Positions 2,150-14,145 of a stretch of DNA of 64,000 bases are shown here, piece by piece (the first letter of the stretch is position 1; every line of letters begins with the position of its first letter). A model generated the notes under the pieces. The model worked only from the letters and a program-made list of their open reading frames with translations. It made no database searches and was not told the origin of the DNA. Made by a program: the position numbers and the translations under genes. Source of the DNA: Moniliella sp. 'wahieum' (lineage: Eukaryota); the NCBI GenBank assembly GCA_003971905.1, contig RSEE01000003.1, forward strand, positions 434,001-498,000. The letters are read 5' to 3'.

Positions 2150-5100
2150 ACATGGCCAACTGGATTGCTCGGAACTCCGAAACTCCGCATCAAATTCAAG
2201 TCTGCTGCCTACGAAAAAGGGTTGTCCGCTCACACTTCCCAGCCTGCCGGTCAGCAAACAGTGAACCCATTTTCAACACGCAATGCGGCGTTGAAGCCGT
2301 CCATATCTGAGACTTTAACCAAGGCGCCCGTCGAATTCACGCACCACTTCTTGCGTCATTCTTCAAGCGTAGGGGGGGTTGCGCGCCTCGTCATCAGGCC
2401 TTGTACCCCTTTTCTGAACCGCTCACACCATGCTCGAGCACCAGGGAACAACAGCAATCCACCGGCTACCCATCACGCCCCTCCTCCAGTTCTTCTCATT
2501 CAATTGAGCATGGTTCCGATGCGCCCGAACCAACTCAAGAAATAACACCAAGAAGAGCACCAACAATGCCAGAGGAAGTGCCATCTTCAGCCCCTATTGA
2601 AACCGGCGCTTGCTCAATCTTCCCCCCACCCCATATTGTCAGCCATTTCGACCAAGGAGGACGGTTCACCTACCCAGAAGAGAATTTTCGACGGGAATGC
2701 TGATATGCCTACAGTTACAATGCTCTCTTCGGATGGAGGAGCCGTACACACCCATCCCACCCAGCAAAAGAGAGGACATTCTCCAATTTGGGTTTGGGGG
2801 AGCTCCGAAAGGATTGGCCTCAGGCCTTGTCGTCCCCTCAACGACTCTTCTTCCTGCAGTGTCGTCGTTTCATTCGGATCCGCCCCAATTGGGTGAGCTT
2901 CCTTCGGTTCGTCCTTTAACAACGGAAGACTGGATGTTGGGGCCAGACCAATTCTTTGCGTCATCAACAGCTCAGATGGTGTAGGGATACATTTCCAATT
3001 CACCCTCCTCTCACCCTCAATTTGACGCCTGCGCACATTCTCTCCGCGAGAGACCCCTCTTTCAAGCCGGTACAGCCCACTGTTTTCCCGGGCACACCCT
3101 TCACACCGCAGACGTCTCGCACTCTCGACTGCCCGAGTAGAAGAGGCAGCATTCATTTTCTCTCTCATCCTTTCTCGCCCTGGCACGTTTTCGCACCCGC
3201 GGCCTTTATTGCAGCCACAACACTTCTACAGCATTCACATCCGCTTAATCTTTTCAATGCAAACTCACGCGCCTCTCCATCCAACCAAGGGGATATTTTG
3301 TTCCGATGTCTCCTTTGGCTTTGCTTTCCGTGGTTACTTCCCCTCGTTTTTGCTCAACGTAAAAGAACCGTTTTTTGGTTGACTTGCCTCATTACGTTGC
3401 TACTACTATGGTATATAGCTCCGAGAGCCGCCTCATCACAAAAAGCATCGTCTTGGCACCAAGAGGGGCTACTACTGTGTATCCAGTTTTTTTAGATGAT
3501 GACAAAAGCACCACAGTCCGATGTCAGTACTACTACATATATCATCCCCGAAGGGATGGAGCAGCCACCAGGGATGGAATATAGAGCAAAGCATTCCGGG
3601 CTGCTTGGGCCATCTATGCTGCAATCCAAGGCCAACTGACTTTAGTAAACACTCGGCAGTCATCTTGATGCGTGCGGCCATTATGCATTACAGAAGAAGA
3701 GGGGCACCGCCGCACCCCCCGAGAATGGCATCGTGACCAGCAGGCATCCGTGCATTTGGGGCCGTGTGGGGTGCCTGAACATTTCAGTGCATCCTGTGCA
3801 GCCTTGCCCGTGGATGCGCCTTCAAGCTTCATGATTGCTGGTTCTCTGTCTCCTGCCACTTGCTACTTGTCCACCCACCCAGGCGAGTCCCCCTTTGCCC
3901 GCCTTGTCCAGGCAGTGCTTCCCCTGTCGATCGCACCCGCCTGGCTCCTCCACGCCGCGTTGGTAACCGCCTGACTGTTGGCCGACGAGGATGCTGGCTT
4001 CTCTCGACCCCGTACGCCCATGCCACCACGCTGCTGAGGCAGAGAACAGTGGAATTGGTCCACCATCACCAAGCGTCCCCACGTTCCCGACGACCACTGG
4101 GCGGCGCGTAGGGCCACCCGCGCTTTCTCTTTCCCGGCCTGGTGATTGCCATGGGTGTTTAACGGGTACCCATGTCCTCCGCCTGCTGCATCGAGTTTGC
4201 CCACCGCCTCGCAAACATGCAGTATCAAGGCGGCGGGGGAAAGCTGCCACGGCGCTCACCTACTATATCCTGCGTTTGGTTGGTCATCATCACCTTTCGC
4301 CAACAAGGCTCGCATCCTCCTCCGTACCCTTGGTGACGCCATGGGCGCCTTCTTTCGGGGAAAGAAGTAATCGCATTAACTTGCGATCCCGGGTGTGTAC
4401 GAATAGGAAGGCATGGCACCCATGTTCCCTTTAGGTGCTGCCCAAGTTTTTGCTTATGTACCCGCATCGATGGGGGGTCCATGCTCGACATGTTTACCTC
4501 ACCATGGGGTAATCTGGGCTGAGCGCTGAATGCATCACAGCTATTTGCGCCATTAGCCTCCTTGCGGGCAGAGCTACAGGTGGAGACATCCGAGACTATC
4601 AACCAATCAAAGATGCATACGCATGCCACCGACGCGGACGTCTACTCTTCGCATTCGGATCGTTTGATGACCTTTTTGACGTGATAGGGGTGTATGAGCA
4701 GTGCCGCAATGAGTCGTTGCGCCAGGCGGGCATTCGTTGCGCATACGACTTGGTCGTGGTGGTACGATAGTACTATACCAAGCACCAGTGGTTTGGTCCA
4801 TTCAACAAAAAGCTCTATCAGCTCGTTCGCTGGAACGTCGATGGGCCCGGCGGCAAAGCCTTTGCTCTGTATGTGGGAAAGGCCAATGACTTTGTTTGGG
4901 TGTCAGACCCAGACCTGTTGATGACGGGTACTAACTCATCGTAGCTCTCGGATGCATCCTTTATTACTCGGCCATGTGCGGATCCATTGACTCCGTTGTA
5001 AGAACACAGCACAACGCGGCATTCCCACCTTTGCCTCGATTGGCTCGACATAAACCAGGCCATGAAAACTCCCAAGTTTTTACAAGAAGGCTGGTGCTCA

Positions 5101-5630
5101 CCCAGGTGGTTGGCCCTTTAGTCCCCCTAGCAGGGTTACTGTTAGTGATACTACTGCCACGGCACGATTGCCGTCTCTCGTTTGCAAAACCCGGTACACT
5201 CCCGGGGTAGTGATGGACGTATCCACAACATCTTCTCCCTTCACTGCAAACACAGGGGGGGGGCTTTGCAAGCTACGAGTTGGGGCGGGTAGCTCACCAG
5301 TGAGTAGCTGAGGCCCCCAACCCGACCGAGGGGTTTGCTACCAGCATGATCGAGTACCCTTACGTCGAGTGGGGTTCAGCTCTCGTTTGAACGAGAGATT
5401 AAGGACGACTACCGTCACGAGGACAACGTCACTCACACGCCCGGCGGTCAAGTCGATCCTCATCCAGGAGCGAGACGATGGAAGGTGGTACGACTCCTGG
5501 GCTATTTGCATGAGATACTCCGCCATGACCTTCAACTGCCGTATCGATGGGAGTATCAGGTGGTTCAGACACCATGGGCAGTCACTAGTCATTGTGTGGT
5601 CACACCCGACTACACAAGCACGATTTAGTA
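2150..5630 (+). pseudogene. Uncharacterised, heavily interrupted gene (orphan, pseudogene or decayed mobile element)
   Basis: Successive protein-like + strand fragments, e.g. RGRLLFAFGSFDDLFDVIGVYEQC, YYTKHQWFGPFNKKLYQLVRW...ALYVGKANDF, RWKVVRLLGYLHEILRHDLQLPYRW. No family recognised. Confidence 0.3.
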
Positions 5631-5955
5631 GAGTCCATCCGTTGTACTGGCAAGCTCATCATGTCCCCCTAAACCAAGGGTAGTTAGTGCTTGGAAGCAA
5701 TAGTGTATGGAGGTCATCTGATCAAAAAGGCGTCACGTCTATGGGAATAAAATCCATCCCTAGTTGCATGGAGAACGAAGCTGATGCATTGCGCTCGTGG
5801 CACCTACTCTCCAGTTGAAGTCGCATGGCTCAGAGGTAGAAGGGAGATGCGGGTGCAATGCATCGGCTGGGCACGAGCACAAAGAATGGGGATGGATGTA
5901 TAGGAAGCAGAGCAAAGGGAAGGCGAAACAAGTGAGCATAAGGATTGGATGCGGG

Positions 5956-7250
5956 TCAACTCATATCGAAGGGTGTGGTACGATCCTCCTTTCTAGCCTT
6001 GGCTTTGAGTACGTTTTGTCGCCGCAGACGGTCACGCGCTTGCCGAGCCGTCCAAAACACTTCCTCCGCCTTATCTGGATCCTCGTTGAAGTTGCGTTCG
6101 TGGTCTCTGCGATTCACCGCTGAAATCTCGGCAGCTGCCAGGTCGACGCTAAAAAGCATATCACGTTCACCCTCGATGGAGATTGACGAACGGGGAAGGA
6201 GCTGGCCGCTCTTCGTGTCGTCCGAGGCCCAGAGCCCCACTTTTTGAGCATGAGAGCAGAGCTTTTTAAACAAAGCCGCATCCGACGTGATCTCCGACCG
6301 AGTCTCGACCAGCTCAAGCTGTCTTACCCCTTGCTGCTCAGTCCGTTGGCGCCGCAAGCCAACCGGCCGGGTTTGGTCCAGCGGCTGAATGCTCATCCGC
6401 TGTTGAAGGGGCTGGGATGCGGTTGGGGCTGACACCCACCTGTTGCATGGGAGCGGGCGGTAGGGCGCTAGAGTCCAATCCGAGTCAGCATCGTACCAGC
6501 AGAGTAGAGGGGGCACTTACCTCACGTTCCTTGGCCCAGGCCTTTTGGGTCTCCTTGGCCTTGGTGCGACTCAGGTCAGCCACAAAGTTAGCCACCTGAG
6601 CTTGAGCCTCCGGGTCACCCTCATGCGCCATCTCGAGCGTTTCAATAATCTGGAAAGAGGAGTAGATGGTCAGTTGGAAGTCCCGCTAGTAGAAATGGTG
6701 ACATACATTCATCGCCCGTTCCATCTGTGCAGCCACCACAGCAGGCGAGGTATTGCCACGGTGGTGTCGACCCCACTGGGCAATCCAAGGTGCAATGTTG
6801 GCGTAGTGGTGAGTTGGCACGACGGAAGGGGGAAGGGGCCGACGGGAAAGGCGGAGCAAATGACGATAGAGCACGTTGAAGTTCTTCTTGTGCTCAGGTC
6901 GACGGAAGAAAGGGATGGTCAAGCCGCGCTGGGGGGGGAGGAACAAGGAGGAGACCAACGCGGAAGACTCCTGGTCTGACAGAGAAGGAGTGACCTCCGC
7001 AATCGAGTTGGTGAGAGCCGAACCATCGTCTTGCAGTTCTTTGCCCGCCAGCCTCCTCCGGTAAGCGCACATGAGAGGTGGTGTGGAACCATCTACCCGA
7101 CCCATTTTTTCCCATTGATGCGGCGAACATTCGGCGAGGAGGGGAGGGAGCCGAACGGAGGGGAGTGCTGCTGAAGGCGAATGGAATGGTGGCGGTGGTG
7201 TATAGAGCTCGGGAGTAGTATAATCAACTGAATTTGTGGTGGGCTCCACG
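5956..7250 (-). CDS. LYR-motif (Complex1_LYR-like) domain protein segment; probably the C-terminal extension of the upstream Pol gamma
   Basis: IPFFRRPEHKKNFNVLYRHLLRLSRR...WIAQWGRHHRGNTSPAVVAAQMERA. Two canonical introns (6706-6650 gtatgt..cag; 6520-6468 gtaagt..tag) join in-frame coiled-coil-like exons ending at stop 5956. The ORF-track start at 7249 is GTG, not ATG. Confidence 0.6.
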
Positions 7251-7682
7251 CCTTTCCCACGGCCCTGTGCTCCGCTTTGGCGGTAGAATCCACCTTCCTT
7301 TTCGATGCCACCTTGCCCATGGGTTCCACCTTAACCTGGCGTCTCGTGGTACCGGAGTCTTTTGTAGCCCGCCTAGGTTGAAGTATGGCGACTGGCCAAG
7401 CTCCCGTGCCAGCTCCTTCCACCCCTCTTGAGCGTCTAGAGTAAGCTTGCCTTGTTAGAAGCAGCATCCAAGACCTTAATCTTACGGTCGAGTGCCGCTC
7501 TCTGCCCTCTTGGAGGTCGATTGGGCATAAAGGAAGCTCCTTCCCCGAACCCCTTCAGCTCGGTGGTGGGGATGGGTGAATAAATGCCGGGTAAGAGGGT
7601 GCCATCAACGCCTGAAACTCGGGCGTGTTGGTGTAAGGCGCAAACGCATGATCCGCAAGGGGGCTTTGCACGCCCCCTTCCT

Positions 7683-10600
7683 TCATCCCACAGGCATCCT
7701 TGGGGCGAGAATAGGCTGTCCCAGCCCCTCCGCCCCGGTCGCCTCAATCGTTTTCTCAATGGTCAGCGCCGATCCGGGGGGCACGGGCGTTGGGTGAGAT
7801 GGGGTCACACAAGGGTCTCCTGGCTCCTTGCGTAGCACCTTGTCCACATCCACTTGACTGAAGAAAGCGCATCCGAGCGGAAGGTCGTCCATTTCCAACA
7901 TGTAAGCAAACATGGACCGGGTCCACAAGTTGGCCACCTGCAGCGCCAACGCCGCCCGAGAAACATCCTCATCGCGCACAAGGTACCGCACATCATCGTG
8001 GAAAGAGAGGAGGAAGCGTGCCTCGATCCCATACGTTCGACAGAGGTGATCCATCGCAGTCAAGCAGGTGAAGGTAGTCCACGCCGCTAGACTGGACCAC
8101 CCAGTTGATCCGCGAAGGAAGGAAGGCCTCCTGCGCCGACCCGTCCGAGTTGGTCTTTGTGGGAAGGTATGCACGGCTCAAAGCGGTTGTGACTCCACAG
8201 CCCAAGACAGGTGTTCTAGGCCGATCCAAAACAGCGATAGACTCGAGCTTGTTGAACACAAAGCTCTCTGAGCCGCCATACCAGAAGCGGTGGCCAAAGA
8301 ACTTATTTCCCGGGGTGCGCTGTCCCTTGGTATGTTTGTACAGTTCCTTGGCACGTCTCATAGCTTCGTTGGGATCCATCGACGGGTCGGCCTTGAGCAG
8401 AAGTTGGGTCGCATGCTTCACCCCGGCCCCGTAGATACGCGAGTAATTGAACACCTTCGCCTCGTTACGAGATGTACCCAAAATCGAAGCCGTCTTCGAA
8501 TGCAGGTCAGTCCCAAGCGCCTTGGTGCCTTCGAGCGTCATCCACCCGATGGCTGTGCTGCCATGATGGCCAAATTGGGCATCACCAGGACTGAGCAAAT
8601 CCACAGCTCCTCCGAGTCCACATCGGCCCCAACAATCGACCACCCAGGAGGAGACTTAACCATTGTCTTGAGCTCACTGCCAACCCGAGTCTTCTTGGCG
8701 TTTGATGCAGTAAGCCAAGTCTGCTCGATCGCACGGCGCGTTACCGTTCCCATCTGGATCACCTGGGGTAGGATAAGACCCACATCGCCTGAGCCAGAAC
8801 TAGTTGCGCCCTCCGCCGCAGGTTCGCTCGTTTGGGAAGAGGGAATGGGTTAATCTGCACCCCTTCATGCCCATCCCATACCACCAGTTGGTTAAGCACG
8901 CGCTGTCGAGCCGAGATCCAGTACGAGCAGAACGCATTCAGGTCCAGTGCCGCCTTGGCAGTTGCGGGGGAATTGGCCGATGCGAGGACTCCCGTTTCAA
9001 ACGCATTGAGGAATGACTTACCAAAGGGATTTCCCACATTTGCATTTCCCCCATCCCCATGAGGAACCTTGAAAAACTCAGCCCCTGTATCCTCCTGGTC
9101 CATAAGGAGGGCAATGTCAGCACTGTTGGTGAAGAAAACTGGGGTGCCTCGGACGAAAGACCCCTCGCTTGCATCATCTGCTCCCTCCGCATCCGGTGTC
9201 GCATCTGCCGCTGTCGAGCCACCCGTGCCGGGTGCAGAGGTGCTGGCCTCACCCCAGCCCATTCGGAAAACCCACCCATGTTGACGAATAGAAGAGTGGC
9301 TTTTGGTGCCAGGTCATACTCATCAACAACGGAGCGGAACGGTTCCGCATCGACACCTTGACCTTGCCTCCGTCCTTGGCGAGATCCCAGTACCATTTGG
9401 GCCACCATTCTGCCCGGCGGGGGTCATCCTCAGCAAATTCATCAACGAGATCGTGAGCGGAAGACTGGGGCGTGGGGGCTGACGAGGACCGTGGTACCAG
9501 CGACCAATCCAGCTGACGAATGGGCAAGGGTAGCGTTTCAACAGAAGGAGTGAATGGTCCTCCGGGCAGTAGCCGCCTGCAAAAAGGGGTCAAGCAGGCT
9601 GCTGGCGAGTTGAGCAGTGTATGTTTTTGCCAGGGAGACATCCTTTTCCCGCAAGCGTCCAGCACTTTACCCCCCAAACCGAAGGTTCCACCGAGCCCAA
9701 ACCCTGGGGTCCGAGCTTTCTGGCAACTGAGACGGACAAAATGCTAGCGACGCCCGTGAGCTCATGCACAGGTTCCCCTAGCACCTCATCCGACCCAGGC
9801 ACAGGAGATACCGCCATAGCCTCGCAGGGTCGACCACCTTGGAGCACCGGTAAATCGCACGGCCGTTCCAGCTGGGCTGCACCAAGGCCATCGCAGAAGC
9901 GTTCGAGAGAGAGGTGACGGAAGGAACCTTGTCCGCCACACTTTCTCTCCCCTGGCGAGCACGAGATCGCGATACCATCGTGGCACATGGGTCTTCTGCC
10001 ACATCGCCAGCTTATTTGACTTGTTTTTGGGATTGGGTAGGCGGGGGCGTTTCGGGGACCAGTCTAGTTGCTTGAGCCAAGCATCTTGCGACCAAGGGGG
10101 CGACGCTTCCCCCATTGAAGGGGAGATGGAAAGGGGGTGCGATGGGAAATCGGGCTCGTCTTCCGCCTCTTCACCTCTGCTAAAGCGTGGTCAATGCTGG
10201 CTTGTTTCGCTGTGGCCCAGTCTTGCGCTTGCTGCATCGTGACACCCTGGGTGTACTGAACTCTGACCTGCTCCGCAAGGACGACAATTCATCGTCCAGC
10301 TGACTGCGGGCGCGCACATAATAGTCCTCAGCCCGACGGAGGTATTCCTCCCACTCTCGGTCGACAGGGAGACGAGTGGAGCCAAGTTGGAAGACACCAG
10401 CCAAGGTAGCCGGGTGGGGGCATGCATCATGACTAAAAGCAGGCCACACCTTGGCGTATACTTGGTGGGTAACCCACACATCCGACGCGCAGTAGTTCAA
10501 AAGAAATCCAACTGCTCCATGATCACGCTCTTGTTCTCCGCATCCATAAACACATTGCGTACTTCTTTGGGAAGAGTAATGTTGCAATGCAACTTGGCCA

Positions 10601-11876
10601 CCTCAGCGAGCGAATTGGAAGATGCGACATCTATCCAGTTGCGGCCTGCAAATCGGTCAAGAACGTCCATGTCGTGTGCAGCATCAATCGAAGCCTCCAT
10701 CTTCTCCTCCCAGGCGGCATCCACGGGGAAATCGGTCGTCGCAGCGAACTCCGCATCTCCTGCCCAAGGCAAACTGTGAGCGATCAAACTCGACGTCCTC
10801 CAGTGGTGCCAGCACATCTTCCTCATTTCGCAGCTGACGGGCTGTGGCAGCAGCTTGTTTCCGAGAGAGTCGCTTCTTGGTGATTTTTTTCCACGTCTGA
10901 CGCTGGGGGCTGGCTATACCCGCAGTAGCAGCATGAAGGCTCATGGTATCAAGCCACCGCGTAGGAGTGGGAGCAAGGGTGTACTCATCGCGGACCCTGA
11001 TGCGGTCATAGCCCACATTGTGTCCAACCACCAGACGGGCGACTTGGCGCCTTGGAGCGTCTGAACTCTGGCCAGGCCGCATTGGCTCCAGTTCTTCTGA
11101 ACCAAGAGGAATAAGTCGCATCGCATCTTTCTTTTCCTGCTCAGTGTAAGGGTGTTCTTTCCCCACATCCGAGCGTTCGGGTTCGAACAGCCATGGAGAA
11201 AGCCAAGAATAGAGCGCCTTGTCCGACAGGCAATGCCAGAACAGCAGGGAAGTTTGCCGCAGCCAACGTTTCGACGTCGAAAACAAGCGGACCGTCAGAT
11301 GCGGGGGGGTGGGGGACAGGTGAGCCAGGAGAGAGGTGGGTGATCTTGCCATCCGAGTCGCGCTGGATCTCGTACCGCGTCCATCCAGGCTTCCTCACCC
11401 ATTGAGGACGAGATGGAGAAGCTGGGTCTGTCGCGGAGGAGCAATAATGGGGGTTACACCCGTAGGAAACACGTTCGGGGAAGGAAAGGACGCATCCGCT
11501 AGCACGTTCGCCATGCCCAACCAAGGCTGGGCACTGGCGGCGCCGATGCGCCAGAAGTGCTCGGCCAGGTTTGCGCCTACAAGCGGAGGCATCATGGGGA
11601 ACTCGGGCTCAGGGAGAACAGAAGCAGCGTCAGGGGTGAGCCCATGCGACTTCAAGTGCGCCTGGGCGATCTTGAGGGCGTTGACATCAGGCGGGGCGAT
11701 AAAGTCGCTCGAGCCGGGGGGGAAGACGGTGGGGCGCAAGCGGCGGGGGAGGAGCTGGACTCCATGGGGGTTGCGTGGCGGGGGAAGGGCAGAGGTGTTG
11801 CGAGGGCCCTGCTGGGCGCCTTCAGCAGTGCGCGAGCCACAGCGGGCCTGGATCCGCGGGCCCACAGCGACAGCAT
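7683..11876 (-). CDS. MIP1: Mitochondrial DNA polymerase gamma (family A), multiple assembly frameshifts
   Basis: Presequence [19 protein letters not shown] from ATG 11876; ExoI VFDVET, Exo[11 protein letters not shown], Exo[32 protein letters not shown]; motif [12 protein letters not shown], motif [17 protein letters not shown], motif [22 protein letters not shown]. 3' end may extend to 5956. Confidence 0.97.
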
Positions 11877-12003
11877 TCCAGCCAGCTTGCGTTGGTTGCG
11901 CGCACTGGTGGTTTCGGGCCTGGCGAAGCGGAGGAAAAACGGACAGCGGAACGGGAGCACCCCTTCCGCTCCGCCGCCCACAGACTGCTAAATCAAGCGG
12001 GAG

Positions 12004-12047
12004 TCACTAGTCAAGCTTCAAGCTAGTCACATGTCACATGTCACATG
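12004..12047. repeat. 7-nt-period array TCA-CTAG-TCA-AGCT-TCA-AGCT-ag-TCA-CATG-TCA-CATG-TCA-CATG in the MIP1/RPL7 divergent promoter
   Basis: Read directly from the sequence. Confidence 0.85.
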
Positions 12048-12233
12048 CAGCTGCAGGCGCATGCCATCGACCATCGATCCCGATCATCTTTCAAGAGTTG
12101 TGCAATTGTGAAACAAACGAGACTTGCAGCTTGGAGCTTCGCACGTTCAACGTTTCAACGGTCGACTGAACGTTCATATCCGGCCCCATGTTTGCTCTTT
12201 CGCTTTCAACGATTGAGACCCGGGCGCAATAAA

Positions 12234-12262: not shown

Positions 12263-12391
12263 ACGGAGGAGTGTGCCCCTATGCCCAGTTGACTCTCCAA
12301 GGCAGGCTTGAGGTGGGCATCGTCAAACCGGAAGAACGCTCGGCAGACAAGAGCAACCCTTGTCCCTCAACCTCCGACACACCCCGACAAG

Positions 12392-13398
12392 ATGGCCACG
12401 ACGGTTCCTTCTCACGAGTCCATCCTTCGCCCTGAGGCGATTGCCAAGCAGGCTGCCGCCCAGGACGCCGTCAAGGCTGAGCTCGCCGCCAAGGCCGCTG
12501 AGGCCAAGAAGGTAAGCCATGCTTCCTGCAATGTGGGACGGGCCCACGCACCCTTCATTTGACCATGATGGGCACACGGCAATGAAAGCCGGGGGCTATG
12601 ATGCATAACAACCACTTTGATGGCTAGCCTTATTTTGCGATGCTGCCTCAATATCATACCATCTTTCGGGTCTGAGCCACTTGCCCCCGGACGCACCGGT
12701 GCCTGTCCCATCCCTGACATTCTTGCGAGTATACATGGGATTGAGGCTGATGTGTTGATTCTTTTCAGGCTGCCAAGGAGACGCGCGAGAAGATCCTGAA
12801 GCGCAACGAGGCGTACATTGCCGAGTACGCTGCTGCGGATGCTGAGGAGATCAAGAACCGCCGCGTGGCAAAGGCTGCTGGCGACTTCTACGTCCCTGCC
12901 CAGCCCAAGGTGGTCTTCGTGGTCCGCCTTCGTGGTATCTGCAACATCCCCCCTAAGCCCCGCAAGATCATGCAGCTGCTCCCGCCTCATCCAAGTGAAC
13001 AACGGCGTGTTTATTAAGCTCACCAAGGCTACGGCCCAGATGCTGCAGCTGATCGAGCCCTACGTTACGTACGGCACTCCTTCGCTCGCCACCATTCGCT
13101 TGCTGCTCTACAAGCGTGGCTACGCCAAGATCAACGGCCAGCGCTTGCCTCTGTCGGACAACAAGCTGATCCAATCTCGCTTGAGCAAACTTGGCTTCCT
13201 CTCCGTGAGGACCTCGTCCATGAGATTTACACGGCTGGCCCCCACTTTAAGCAGGTCACGACCTTCCTCTGGCCCTTCAAGCTGTCCAACCCTACCGGTG
13301 GCTTCCGTGCCCGCAAGCTTAAGCACTTCGTTGAGAACAACGGTGACACTGGCGACCGCGAGCACTTCATGCCTGCCCTCATCAAGCGCATGGCTTGA
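12392..13398 (+). CDS. RPL7: 60S ribosomal protein L7 (uL30)
   Basis: [12 protein letters not shown]..., intron 12512-12768 (gtaagc..gctgat..cag), then [70 protein letters not shown] at 13396-13398. Small indels present. Confidence 0.97.
12594..12678 (+). ncRNA. Intronic box C/D snoRNA (snR39/snR39B family) guiding 2'-O-methylation of LSU rRNA
   Basis: Box C variant ATGATGC 12598-12604; box D CTGA 12672-12675; guide ACCATCTTTCGGGT 12658-12671 is complementary to conserved LSU rRNA ACCCGAAAGAUGGU; terminal stems GGC/GCC and CCGGGGGC (12589-12596)/GCCCCCGG (12683-12690). Confidence 0.9.
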
Positions 13399-14145
13399 TG
13401 CGTTTGGTTCATACTTACCATTGAATCCGCATCCTTCTACTGGCTAGTTTCTTGCCTTTGGGCGATACGCTTACCAGCCTCATCTGCCTCGTGACCGCGG
13501 TCCCGGGCCGCAGTCCAAAATATGCCTGGGTCAGGCCAGGCTGGGCAATCCATGTCCTCCGTTGTCATGCATTGCTATGATCCCCACGAGGAAGTTAAAC
13601 GCTGAGGTTAGCAAGTAGCATGGAATCAGGATTGAGTTGGAAATTACAAGAGAGGTATCACCGTCGCTTGAGAGTAGTCTTATGAGCTTCTCAAAACCAC
13701 CCACACTCAGAGTGAGCAGTCAGTCTCAACACCCTTCATATTTTCGGCCGCATGAGGGGCGTCTTGCTGCTGTTCTCGTATGCTGATTTGCTCACGAATG
13801 CCCTTGTCATACTCAAGATTCTCACCGTCGGCGAGGCCGCCAGATTTAATGAGAGTAGTCATGCTTGAGCACGAGGAAACGCGGGCGACGTAGAGCTGGT
13901 CATGGGTAGCCGGTAACCGGCAAACAGGGATGGAAGAGGTGATGTACCATTTGACTTGAACTGCTTCATTAGTGCAGGAGTACATTTTGATGCAGCATGC
14001 AAAAGTAGGCTACAATTTCAATTGCTCCACCGCCACATACAATGCCACTGCCAGACCAGGGAGGGGCCGCAAGACGCTCATCCCTGCGCACTGTTGGCGG
14101 CAGGGGCAACCGCCACCACCCATTGCCGGCATCTGGCATCACCAA

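What the first reader, a model, noticed from the sequence alone, without database searches (positions are those of the whole stretch)
5956..7760. Mitochondrial DNA polymerase gamma appears fused to a C-terminal LYR-motif domain
Seen in sequence: after the Pol gamma C-terminal motif (VDKVLRKE...P), overlapping - strand reading frames (7436-7759, 7093-7467, 6686-7249) continue without any evident promoter or terminator gap into IPFFRRPEH...VLYRHLLRLSRR...WIAQWGRHH..NTSP, then two clean introns and a coiled-coil tail to 5956. Given the indel rate elsewhere, the stops between these frames may be assembly errors. Established: LYR proteins bind acylated mitochondrial acyl-carrier protein and act as assembly factors; yeast and human Pol gamma have no such domain. 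Inference: a Pol gamma-LYR fusion could couple mtDNA replication to mitochondrial fatty-acid synthesis status.
Basis: partly seen in the sequence, partly recalled or inferred. Interest (0 to 1): 0.72.

Follow-up and report, generated by a model that had tools for sequence, protein, structure and literature searches.

The report
Mitochondrial polymerase–LYR protein tandem precursor
In smut fungi and their relatives, the gene for the mitochondrial DNA polymerase runs in frame into a second mitochondrial protein that is separate in other fungi, and a conserved import-peptidase-like cut site between them suggests one precursor that is split into two proteins inside mitochondria.

Summary
The fusion is real at gene level. 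The window's stops are indel errors: frameshifts occur about every 250 bases, also inside the catalytic core. The closest relative encodes Pol gamma through the LYR motif in one open frame. 40 of 122 fetched Pol gamma homologs carry the same ~300-residue tail, and these form one clade of smut fungi and relatives. The tail is a whole protein (LYR helices plus a conserved C-module), standalone in mushrooms, jelly fungi and rusts, and probably Rrg1/Cup1-like.

A profile trained only on unfused polymerases' N-termini ranks it 1 of 3,558. Such a site lies where the standalone proteins begin in 25 of 26 lineages.

Best reading: a tandem precursor like Arg5,6 or Atp25, cut after import (0.65). The LYR phenylalanine is Gly here, and two relatives lack the LYR helices altogether, which argues against obligatory acyl-ACP control of replication. 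Cleavage is inferred, not shown.

The parts
11790..11876 (-). Start codon (11876) and N-terminal mitochondrial presequence-like segment of the precursor
   Evidence: Sequence read directly: Arg/Ala/Leu-rich, no acidic residue; one more shift near 11783 joins it to the polymerase frame (inferred by eye from the frames)
7830..11790 (-). Pol gamma (Mip1) exonuclease, spacer and polymerase domains, broken by about 15 indel errors
   Evidence: PF18136 E 5.9e-31 and PF00476 E 1.5e-4 on single frames; collinear with P0003; only locus found for P0003 in the genome, 3 candidates scored
7400..7830 (-). Ordinary basidiomycete C-terminal extension (..HR.EG.RG..FLYAQ..ELAR); unfused Pol gamma end about here
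   Evidence: the median tail after D.DK.LRKE is 149.5 aa in 82 unfused and 512.5 aa in 40 fused proteins
7089..7400 (-). Basic, poorly conserved linker; its last ~25 residues are presequence-like (internal MTS-like segment)
   Evidence: Median linker identity 17% against 74% for the core among 26 representatives; the 25 aa before the site have mean net charge +4.5 and 0.6 D/E, against 2.7 D/E after it; two shifts here (~7387, ~7155) are uncertain
7065..7094 (-). Predicted MPP site with Oct1-type octapeptide, R-W|F-H-T-T-S-H-V-R (cut before 7088)
   Evidence: Fits RX|(F/L/I)XX(T/S/G)XXXX| (PMC3128517); rank 1 of 3,558 positions with a profile from unfused Pol gamma N-termini
6707..7064 (-). N-terminal part of the appended protein, with PFF..H and LYR helices 1-2 and the start of helix 3 (L-Y-R at 6871-6863; Gly at the conserved Phe position)
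   Evidence: Standalone-only HMM E 2.7e-7; column counts; three helices predicted; one shift near 7004
6650..6706 (-). Intron 1 (57 nt, GTATGT..CTGAC..CAG)
   Evidence: splicing keeps the frame and the alignment to homologs
6521..6649 (-). Exon 2: end of LYR helix 3, conserved GD turn and following helix
   Evidence: HMM positions 92-133, E 0.66 on its own; aligned
6468..6520 (-). Intron 2 (53 nt, GTAAGT..CTGAC..TAG)
5956..6467 (-). Exon 3: C-module (TGG..QP..RR, degenerate here) and long helices, to the stop at 5958-5956
   Evidence: HMM positions 153-282, E 0.0055; needs one shift near 6433-6458

Best explanation
One nuclear gene encodes a ~1,940-residue mitochondrial tandem precursor: presequence - Pol gamma - internal presequence-like linker - LYR/Rrg1-like protein. 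The two genes fused once in the ancestor of Ustilaginomycotina. After import through the N-terminal presequence, the matrix processing peptidase cuts at the internal R-x|(F/Y/L)-(S/H)-T site, with Icp55 or Oct1 trimming. That releases a ~1,600-residue polymerase and a ~340-residue protein of the same size and N-terminal position as the standalone orthologs. What is coupled is synthesis and import at a 1:1 ratio, not the folded activities. The released protein most likely works in mitochondrial gene expression or nucleoid upkeep, as yeast Rrg1 does. SHOWN by sequence: the in-frame fusion in relatives, its clade distribution, homology of the tail to standalone proteins, the LYR motif, and conservation and position of the site. 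INFERRED: base-level continuity in this genome, one mRNA, cleavage, Rrg1 kinship and function.
For: Open frame in relatives: 40 of 122 Pol gamma homologs carry the tail (39 at E<1e-3, one at 0.02), including named Ustilago, Sporisorium, Moesziomyces, Thecaphora, Tilletia, Violaceomyces, Acaromyces and Jaminaea proteins. One clade: 38 of 39 rows under a branch with SH-aLRT 98, and none of the other 74 rows is fused (quick tree, 113 of 122 rows long enough). Standalone orthologs in agarics, Calocera, Clavulina, Kwoniella and rusts; none of 11 metagenome loci has Pol gamma in its flanks (contigs 1.3-12.9 kb). Site: [FYLM][SHCG]T 35-90 aa before LYR in 25 of 26 hand-thinned representatives against 2.0 expected from shuffles (pattern and window chosen after seeing the data). 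A literature-style R.[FLY][AKLSH][HSTQ] occurs in 12 of 26 against 1.6 expected, in 11 of 527 core windows and in 17 of 64 Pol gamma N-termini. A profile trained on 16 N-terminal sites of unfused proteins has its top peak in that window in 15 of 26 and a top-3 peak in 24 of 26 (about 1 expected for rank 1); the window's site ranks 1 of 3,558. Site-to-LYR median is 53.5 aa (22 proteins) against Met-to-LYR median 48 aa in standalones (47 of 51). No conserved internal Met (5 of 25; 9 of 26 at scattered positions). Precedent: Arg5,6, Atp25, Rsm22-Cox11 and Etp1 are cut by, or carry sites for, MPP at such internal segments (PMC8734313, PMC5063612; passages). Rrg1 link: ESM Atlas 0.95 to a basidiomycete cluster (24% PF28561 RRG1_C) and 0.92 to an ascomycete cluster (81% RRG1_C).
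Against: No reads, RNA or proteomics were available. Arg at -2 is present in only 13 of 25 sites and the full Oct1 motif in 5 of 25; Ustilaginaceae mostly have Lys at -3 and Tilletia has no nearby Arg. Part of the profile score is plain S/R/A-rich composition, and in several representatives the best peak in the window is not the F/Y-S-T site itself; Violaceomyces ranks only 20th. Three of the 16 training sites are probably mature sequence. Standalone orthologs show the R-2 pattern in only 2 of 51 N-termini, so the site was not simply inherited from their presequence. The Rrg1 link rests on one feature search whose recognition value (1987) is below the tool's 2300 mark, with no alignment. The window's C-module is degenerate. 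The representatives are related, so the counts are not independent events.
Confidence: 0.65

Rival explanations
1. Permanent or partly cleaved fusion: the LYR/Rrg1-like module stays on the polymerase and lets acyl-ACP or RNA-processing state regulate mtDNA replication.
For: The fusion is kept across the whole clade. L-Y-R is intact: L 23, Y 24 and R 25 of 25 fused copies. Half of the sites lack Arg at -2. Yeast rrg1 deletion loses functional mtDNA, with altered nucleoids and no translation (PMC2768984, passages), so the partners act in the same place.
Against: The F/Y-S/H-T site is conserved in a linker otherwise 17% identical and at the position of the standalone N-terminus. The LYR-F residue, said to be required for acyl-ACP binding (PMC11293456), is F/W in 49 of 50 standalones but F in 10 of 25 fused copies and Gly in the window. 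P0022 and P0033 lack the LYR helices.
Confidence: 0.17
2. In-frame gene pair with two products: the tail is made mainly from its own internal promoter or start codon or by alternative splicing, and the presequence-like linker is its own targeting signal.
For: The linker looks like a working presequence. The window has two ATGs 9 and 14 codons before the site. P0236 (310 aa) looks standalone yet groups with Jaminaea-like fused tails (SH 90). Atp25's internal MTS can drive import alone (PMC5063612).
Against: A Met lies 10-60 aa before the site in only 5 of 25 proteins. Linkers of 82-234 aa stay open and in frame in all 26 representatives despite 17% identity, which is what selection on read-through gives.
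Confidence: 0.13
3. Two separate neighbouring genes in this genome, joined only in appearance by indel errors.
For: The assembly as given has stops in the linker and no reads could be laid. Two linker shifts are poorly placed. A secondary split in this lineage cannot be excluded at base level.
Against: The closest relative is open through the whole linker and aligns along it. The shift rate in the linker matches that in the catalytic core. There is no drop in GC like those at 5600-5800 and 12000-12200.
Confidence: 0.05

Closest known systems
Mitochondrial tandem precursors cut by MPP: S. cerevisiae Arg5,6 and Atp25; S. pombe Rsm22-Cox11 and Etp1 (PMC8734313, PMC5063612; passages read)
   Same: N-terminal presequence, two otherwise separate matrix proteins in one frame, an internal MTS-like segment with an R-2/aromatic site at the junction, conserved across a lineage
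   Different: The first partner is the replicative mtDNA polymerase and the precursor is about 1,900 aa; Arg at -2 is missing in about half of the lineages; cleavage is not shown; 'polymerase', 'Ustilago' and 'LYR' do not occur in the main text of PMC8734313
Fungal Pol gamma (Mip1) with C-terminal extension; yeast CTE of 279 aa (PMC3303844, search listing only)
   Same: Exonuclease (PF18136) and PolA (PF00476) domains and a basidiomycete-type conserved extension
   Different: A further ~360 aa: linker plus a whole second protein with standalone orthologs
LYRM superfamily (ISD11/LYRM4, AltMIEF1/L0R8F8, NDUFA6, NDUFB9)
   Same: L-Y-R motif and three-helix arrangement; the family profile matches ISD11 at E 7.6e-5 and AltMIEF1 at 0.002
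   Different: About 340 aa with a long C-module; the downstream Phe is replaced in 15 of 25 fused copies; LYR helices are absent in two; no clear assignment to one of the 12 described subfamilies
S. cerevisiae Rrg1 (YDR065W) and S. pombe Cup1
   Same: Mitochondrial; the standalone ortholog falls next to RRG1_C and Cup1-like clusters by language-model features; Cup1 is an essential mitochondrial LYR protein (PMC12811382); Rrg1 is needed for mtDNA maintenance and translation and is listed as possibly needed for 5' processing of mitochondrial tRNAs (PMC10903034, table row)
   Different: Neither is reported as fused in the passages read; orthology was not confirmed by alignment (PF28561 is not in the local library)

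Membership tests
Pol gamma (family A mitochondrial DNA polymerase) | Exonuclease and PolA domains in order, orthology to Mip1 | tested here: met
LYRM superfamily | L-Y-R motif at the start of helix 1 | tested here: met
   Window L-Y-R at 6871-6863; L 23, Y 24, R 25 of 25 fused copies
LYRM superfamily | Profile-level homology to LYRMs | tested here: met
   Family profile against PDB: ISD11 E 7.6e-5. PF05347 in 28 of 34 standalones at E<=0.05 and above its cut-off in fused P0016. The window's own frames give no direct Pfam hit; they link through the standalone HMM
LYRM superfamily | Conserved downstream Phe (LYR-F) | tested here: not met
   Gly in the window, Ala in P0003; F in 10 of 25 fused, F/W in 49 of 50 standalone. 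FMC1 is a known LYRM without it
LYRM superfamily | Three-helix LYR fold | tested here: inconclusive
   Standalone model matches NDUFA6-type chains (Z 7.6, rmsd 2.8, 79 aligned; Z 7.7, rmsd 3.4, 78 aligned) and ISD11 (prob 0.90, rmsd 2.1, E 1.8). The model of the window's exon-1 piece has three helices, but no LYRM stands out (best Z 5.6 to unrelated chains; ISD11 only at E 8.2); that piece lacks the end of helix 3
LYRM superfamily | Binds acylated mitochondrial ACP | not testable with these tools
MPP-cleaved mitochondrial tandem precursors | Two proteins that are separate elsewhere, in one open frame | tested here: met
MPP-cleaved mitochondrial tandem precursors | N-terminal presequence | tested here: inconclusive
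   Presequence-like by composition at 11876-11790; no targeting predictor available
MPP-cleaved mitochondrial tandem precursors | Internal MTS-like segment with MPP motif at the junction | tested here: met
   Window site fits R-2 and the Oct1 motif; clade-wide F/Y-S/H-T in 25 of 26, R-2 in 13 of 25; home-made scores, not TargetP or MitoFates
MPP-cleaved mitochondrial tandem precursors | Cleavage after import | not testable with these tools
   Needs an import or MPP assay, or N-terminomics
Rrg1/Cup1-like proteins | RRG1_C (PF28561) domain after an LYR-like N-terminus | tested here: inconclusive
   Feature similarity 0.92-0.95 for a standalone ortholog; the model is not in the local Pfam; no yeast sequence was fetched

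The most novel reading that the evidence does not exclude
In some or all Ustilaginomycotina the precursor is cut incompletely or under regulation, or the products stay bound, so the mtDNA replicase carries an LYR/Rrg1-like module. That would physically tie replication to acyl-ACP status and mitochondrial RNA processing, and the fusion would be a Rosetta-stone pointer that the uncharacterised Rrg1/Cup1 family acts at the nucleoid.
Probability: 0.17. Interest if true: 0.85.

Novelty: new variant of a known kind. Interest (0 to 1): 0.62.

Why it matters
It would add the replicative mtDNA polymerase to the short list of mitochondrial polyproteins, fixed across a fungal subphylum (smuts, Tilletia, Malassezia-like yeasts). 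It means that public ~1,900-aa 'MIP1' annotations in this group hide a second, probably essential, gene: a MIP1 knock-out or C-terminal tag there would hit two functions. It also ties a poorly understood family (Rrg1/Cup1-like LYR proteins, needed for mtDNA maintenance and translation in yeast) to the replicase. One tagged strain and one MPP assay would test whether the tie is only co-expression or physical. The fusion is also a candidate shared derived character for the subphylum. I found no paper describing it (searches; passage searches of two LYRM surveys), but the library lacks most subscription journals, and the fusion table S3 of PMC11293456 could not be read and may list it.

Tried and rejected
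No sequencing run was listed for 5800-9000, which is no evidence either way. The word-index search with the window's 96-aa LYR piece among longer proteins found nothing (153 candidates); the window's copy is too diverged. Pfam on 14 window frames gave no LYR hit. ESM Atlas on the window's piece gave LYR clusters at only 0.85, a lead. Fold searches with the window's exon-1 model did not single out LYRMs. A standalone copy elsewhere in the genome was not found with P0127 or P0001 as query, which does not show absence. The bacterial promoter/terminator scan says nothing for a fungus. An intron-like signal at 7485-7436 was rejected as a constitutive intron, because the stretch is 12 of 18 residues identical to coding sequence in P0003. 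Assignment to AltMIEF1 was dropped: it was the top PDB hit with the small profile (E 0.09), but ISD11 was better with the larger one. P0100 (Phaffia) and P0111 (Gymnopus) have long tails without the module, and P0177 and P0235 are single long models not followed up. P0028 (U. loliicola) lacks the tail but ends abruptly 154 aa after the motif and sits next to fused near-identical relatives, so it is probably a truncated model. The LYR-ACP complex prediction could not be run.
Full report
Observation. The minus strand of 11876-5956 holds a fungal mitochondrial DNA polymerase gamma gene (PF18136 and PF00476 on single frames) in an indel-ridden assembly of 69.5 Mb in 223 contigs. The closest homolog, P0003 (1,756 aa, unnamed, one open frame), aligns collinearly from the polymerase domain to the LYR motif with no stop needed. 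Shifts fall near 8844, 8587, 8064, 7705, 7581, 7499, 7440 and 7004, with two poorly placed ones near 7387 and 7155 (an eleventh flagged shift lies in intron 1 and was ignored). Twelve more lie in 11800-8800. Because shifts interrupt highly conserved catalytic blocks and only one Pol gamma locus was found in the genome (3 candidates scored), they are best read as sequencing errors. The TGA at 7685-7683 is out of frame. No reads were listed, so this rests on comparison. The introns are 6706-6650 and 6520-6468.

The fusion is a lineage character. Among the best 120 of 1,124 Pol gamma homologs plus two added later (P0220, P0281), the tail after D.DK.LRKE has a median of 149.5 aa in 82 proteins and 512.5 aa in 40. 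An HMM made only from 51 standalone proteins hits 39 of 122 at E<1e-3 and a fortieth at 0.02. In a quick tree of the polymerase domain (113 of 122 rows long enough), all 38 fused rows fall under one branch with SH-aLRT 98. That branch holds one unfused row, probably a truncated U. loliicola model, and none of the other 74 rows is fused. Named members are Ustilago, Sporisorium, Moesziomyces, Pseudozyma, Thecaphora, Tilletia, Violaceomyces, Acaromyces and Jaminaea, that is Ustilaginomycotina; calling the P0012/P0016/P0022 group Malassezia-like is my recollection and comes from no call. Sampling outside is mostly Agaricomycotina; no rust or ascomycete Pol gamma was among the rows.

The tail is a whole protein. 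Standalone homologs of about 290-420 aa occur in agarics, Auricularia, Calocera, Clavulina, Kwoniella, Cronartium and Puccinia (735 representatives at E<=0.001, best 150 seen). None of 11 metagenome loci had Pol gamma beside it (several contigs are short). The family has PFF..H, L-Y-R, three helices, a GD turn and a C-module (G..L.P..N.PLPR.KPQP..MI..RR). Its profile matches ISD11 at E 7.6e-5 and AltMIEF1 at 0.002; PF05347 scores in 28 of 34 standalones at E<=0.05. A model of a standalone matches NDUFA6-type chains (Z 7.6-8.2) and ISD11 (rmsd 2.1), scores that are modest for helical bundles. The standalone HMM finds the window's three exons in order. The window's own exon-1 model has three helices, but its fold searches were inconclusive. 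ESM Atlas places a standalone ortholog at 0.95 with a basidiomycete cluster (24% RRG1_C), at 0.92 with an ascomycete cluster (81% RRG1_C), and near Cup1-like clusters; the tool's recognition value was low, so this is a lead. Yeast rrg1 deletion lacks functional mtDNA, with altered nucleoids and no translation (PMC2768984, passages). Rrg1 is listed as possibly needed for 5' processing of mitochondrial tRNAs (PMC10903034, table row). Cup1 is an essential mitochondrial LYR protein (PMC12811382, passages). That yeast mitochondrial fatty-acid synthesis is needed for RNase P processing is recalled and comes from no call.

Just upstream of the LYR protein, in a linker only 17% identical between lineages (core 74%), there is a basic, acid-free stretch ending in (F/Y/L)-(S/H/C)-T. 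In the window it reads R-W|F-H-T-T-S-H-V-R at 7094-7065, an exact fit to the MPP/Oct1 motif RX|(F/L/I)XX(T/S/G)XXXX| (PMC3128517, passages). Among 26 representatives picked by hand from the 40, 25 have the pattern 35-90 aa before LYR, against 2.0 expected from shuffles; that pattern was chosen after seeing the data. A literature-style R-2 pattern occurs in 12 of 26 (1.6 expected), against 11 of 527 core windows, 6 of 81 unfused C-termini and 17 of 64 Pol gamma N-termini. The 25 residues before the site average net +4.5 with 0.6 D/E; residues 9-33 after it have 2.7 D/E. As a less circular test, I trained a profile on 16 N-terminal sites from 28 unfused proteins. It ranked the window's site first of 3,558 positions in all three minus-strand frames of the gene. 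It put the top internal peak in that window in 15 of 26 fused proteins and a top-3 peak in 24 of 26, with about 1 expected at rank 1. The site lies a median 53.5 aa before LYR, close to the 48 aa between start Met and LYR in standalones. No internal Met is conserved.

Mechanism. This anatomy matches MPP-cut tandem precursors such as Arg5,6, Atp25, Rsm22-Cox11 and Etp1, where an internal MTS-like segment with an R-2 site marks the junction and a strong N-terminal presequence is needed (PMC8734313 and PMC5063612, passages). An LYRM review already notes that fused LYRMs may be cleaved tandems (PMC4381221, passages). The window's gene starts at 11876 with a presequence-like segment. I therefore favour one precursor of about 1,940 aa, imported once and cut into a ~1,600-aa polymerase and a ~340-aa LYR/Rrg1-like protein (0.65). 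The fusion, its distribution, the homology and the site are shown by sequence; the single mRNA, the cut and the function are inferred.

Against this reading: Arg at -2 is present in only 13 of 25 sites and the full Oct1 motif in 5 of 25. The profile partly scores composition, and Violaceomyces ranks 20th. Standalones rarely show the motif (2 of 51). The representatives are related. A separately initiated downstream product (0.13) is not excluded; P0236 may be a secondary split. Two separate genes in this genome is unlikely (0.05).

Novelty. Paper searches for this fusion returned nothing relevant, and 'polymerase' does not occur in the main text of two LYRM surveys or the tandem-precursor paper. 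The fusion table S3 of PMC11293456 could not be read and most subscription papers are not held. The long proteins sit in public annotations simply as MIP1. It works like a known tandem precursor with new partners; membership awaits proof of cleavage. Verdict: real, conserved, new variant of a known kind; interest 0.62.

Noticed in passing
window 12366-13447 (+): A 60S ribosomal protein L7-like gene (PF08079 E 3.2e-13, PF00327) lies divergent from the Pol gamma gene, also frameshifted, which confirms the general error rate.
   Followed up: partly
window 7485-7436 (-): GTAAGA..CTAAC..TAG, a 50-nt intron-like signal inside a stretch that is conserved coding sequence in P0003; removing it would also restore the frame as assembled, so a minor alternative splice is not excluded.
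   Followed up: partly
proteins P0022 and P0033: Fused relatives with the LYR helices missing in frame but the cleavage-like site and C-module kept.
   Followed up: partly
protein P0236: A 310-aa standalone-looking protein that groups with Jaminaea-like fused tails (SH 90): secondary fission or a truncated gene call.
   Followed up: partly
L017, L018, L019 (own genome, contigs C8, C23, C32): Three similar mitochondrial-ACP-like loci whose presequence ends R-M-Y-S-S, the same site type as the internal one; three copies on three contigs against one Pol gamma locus may mean paralogs or a mixed assembly.
   Followed up: no
window 6467-6380 (-): The family's most conserved motif (N.PLPR.KPQP) is degenerate here and parts of it appear in different frames, so more indel errors or real divergence cannot be told apart.
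   Followed up: partly
window 4513-4944 (+): Protein-like open frames converge on the 3' end of the fused gene; no Pfam hit at E<=0.05.
   Followed up: partly
proteins P0177 (Hericium) and P0235 (Austropuccinia): Single long models with extra N-terminal sequence before the LYR module (F-box-labelled in P0177); probably merged gene models.
   Followed up: no
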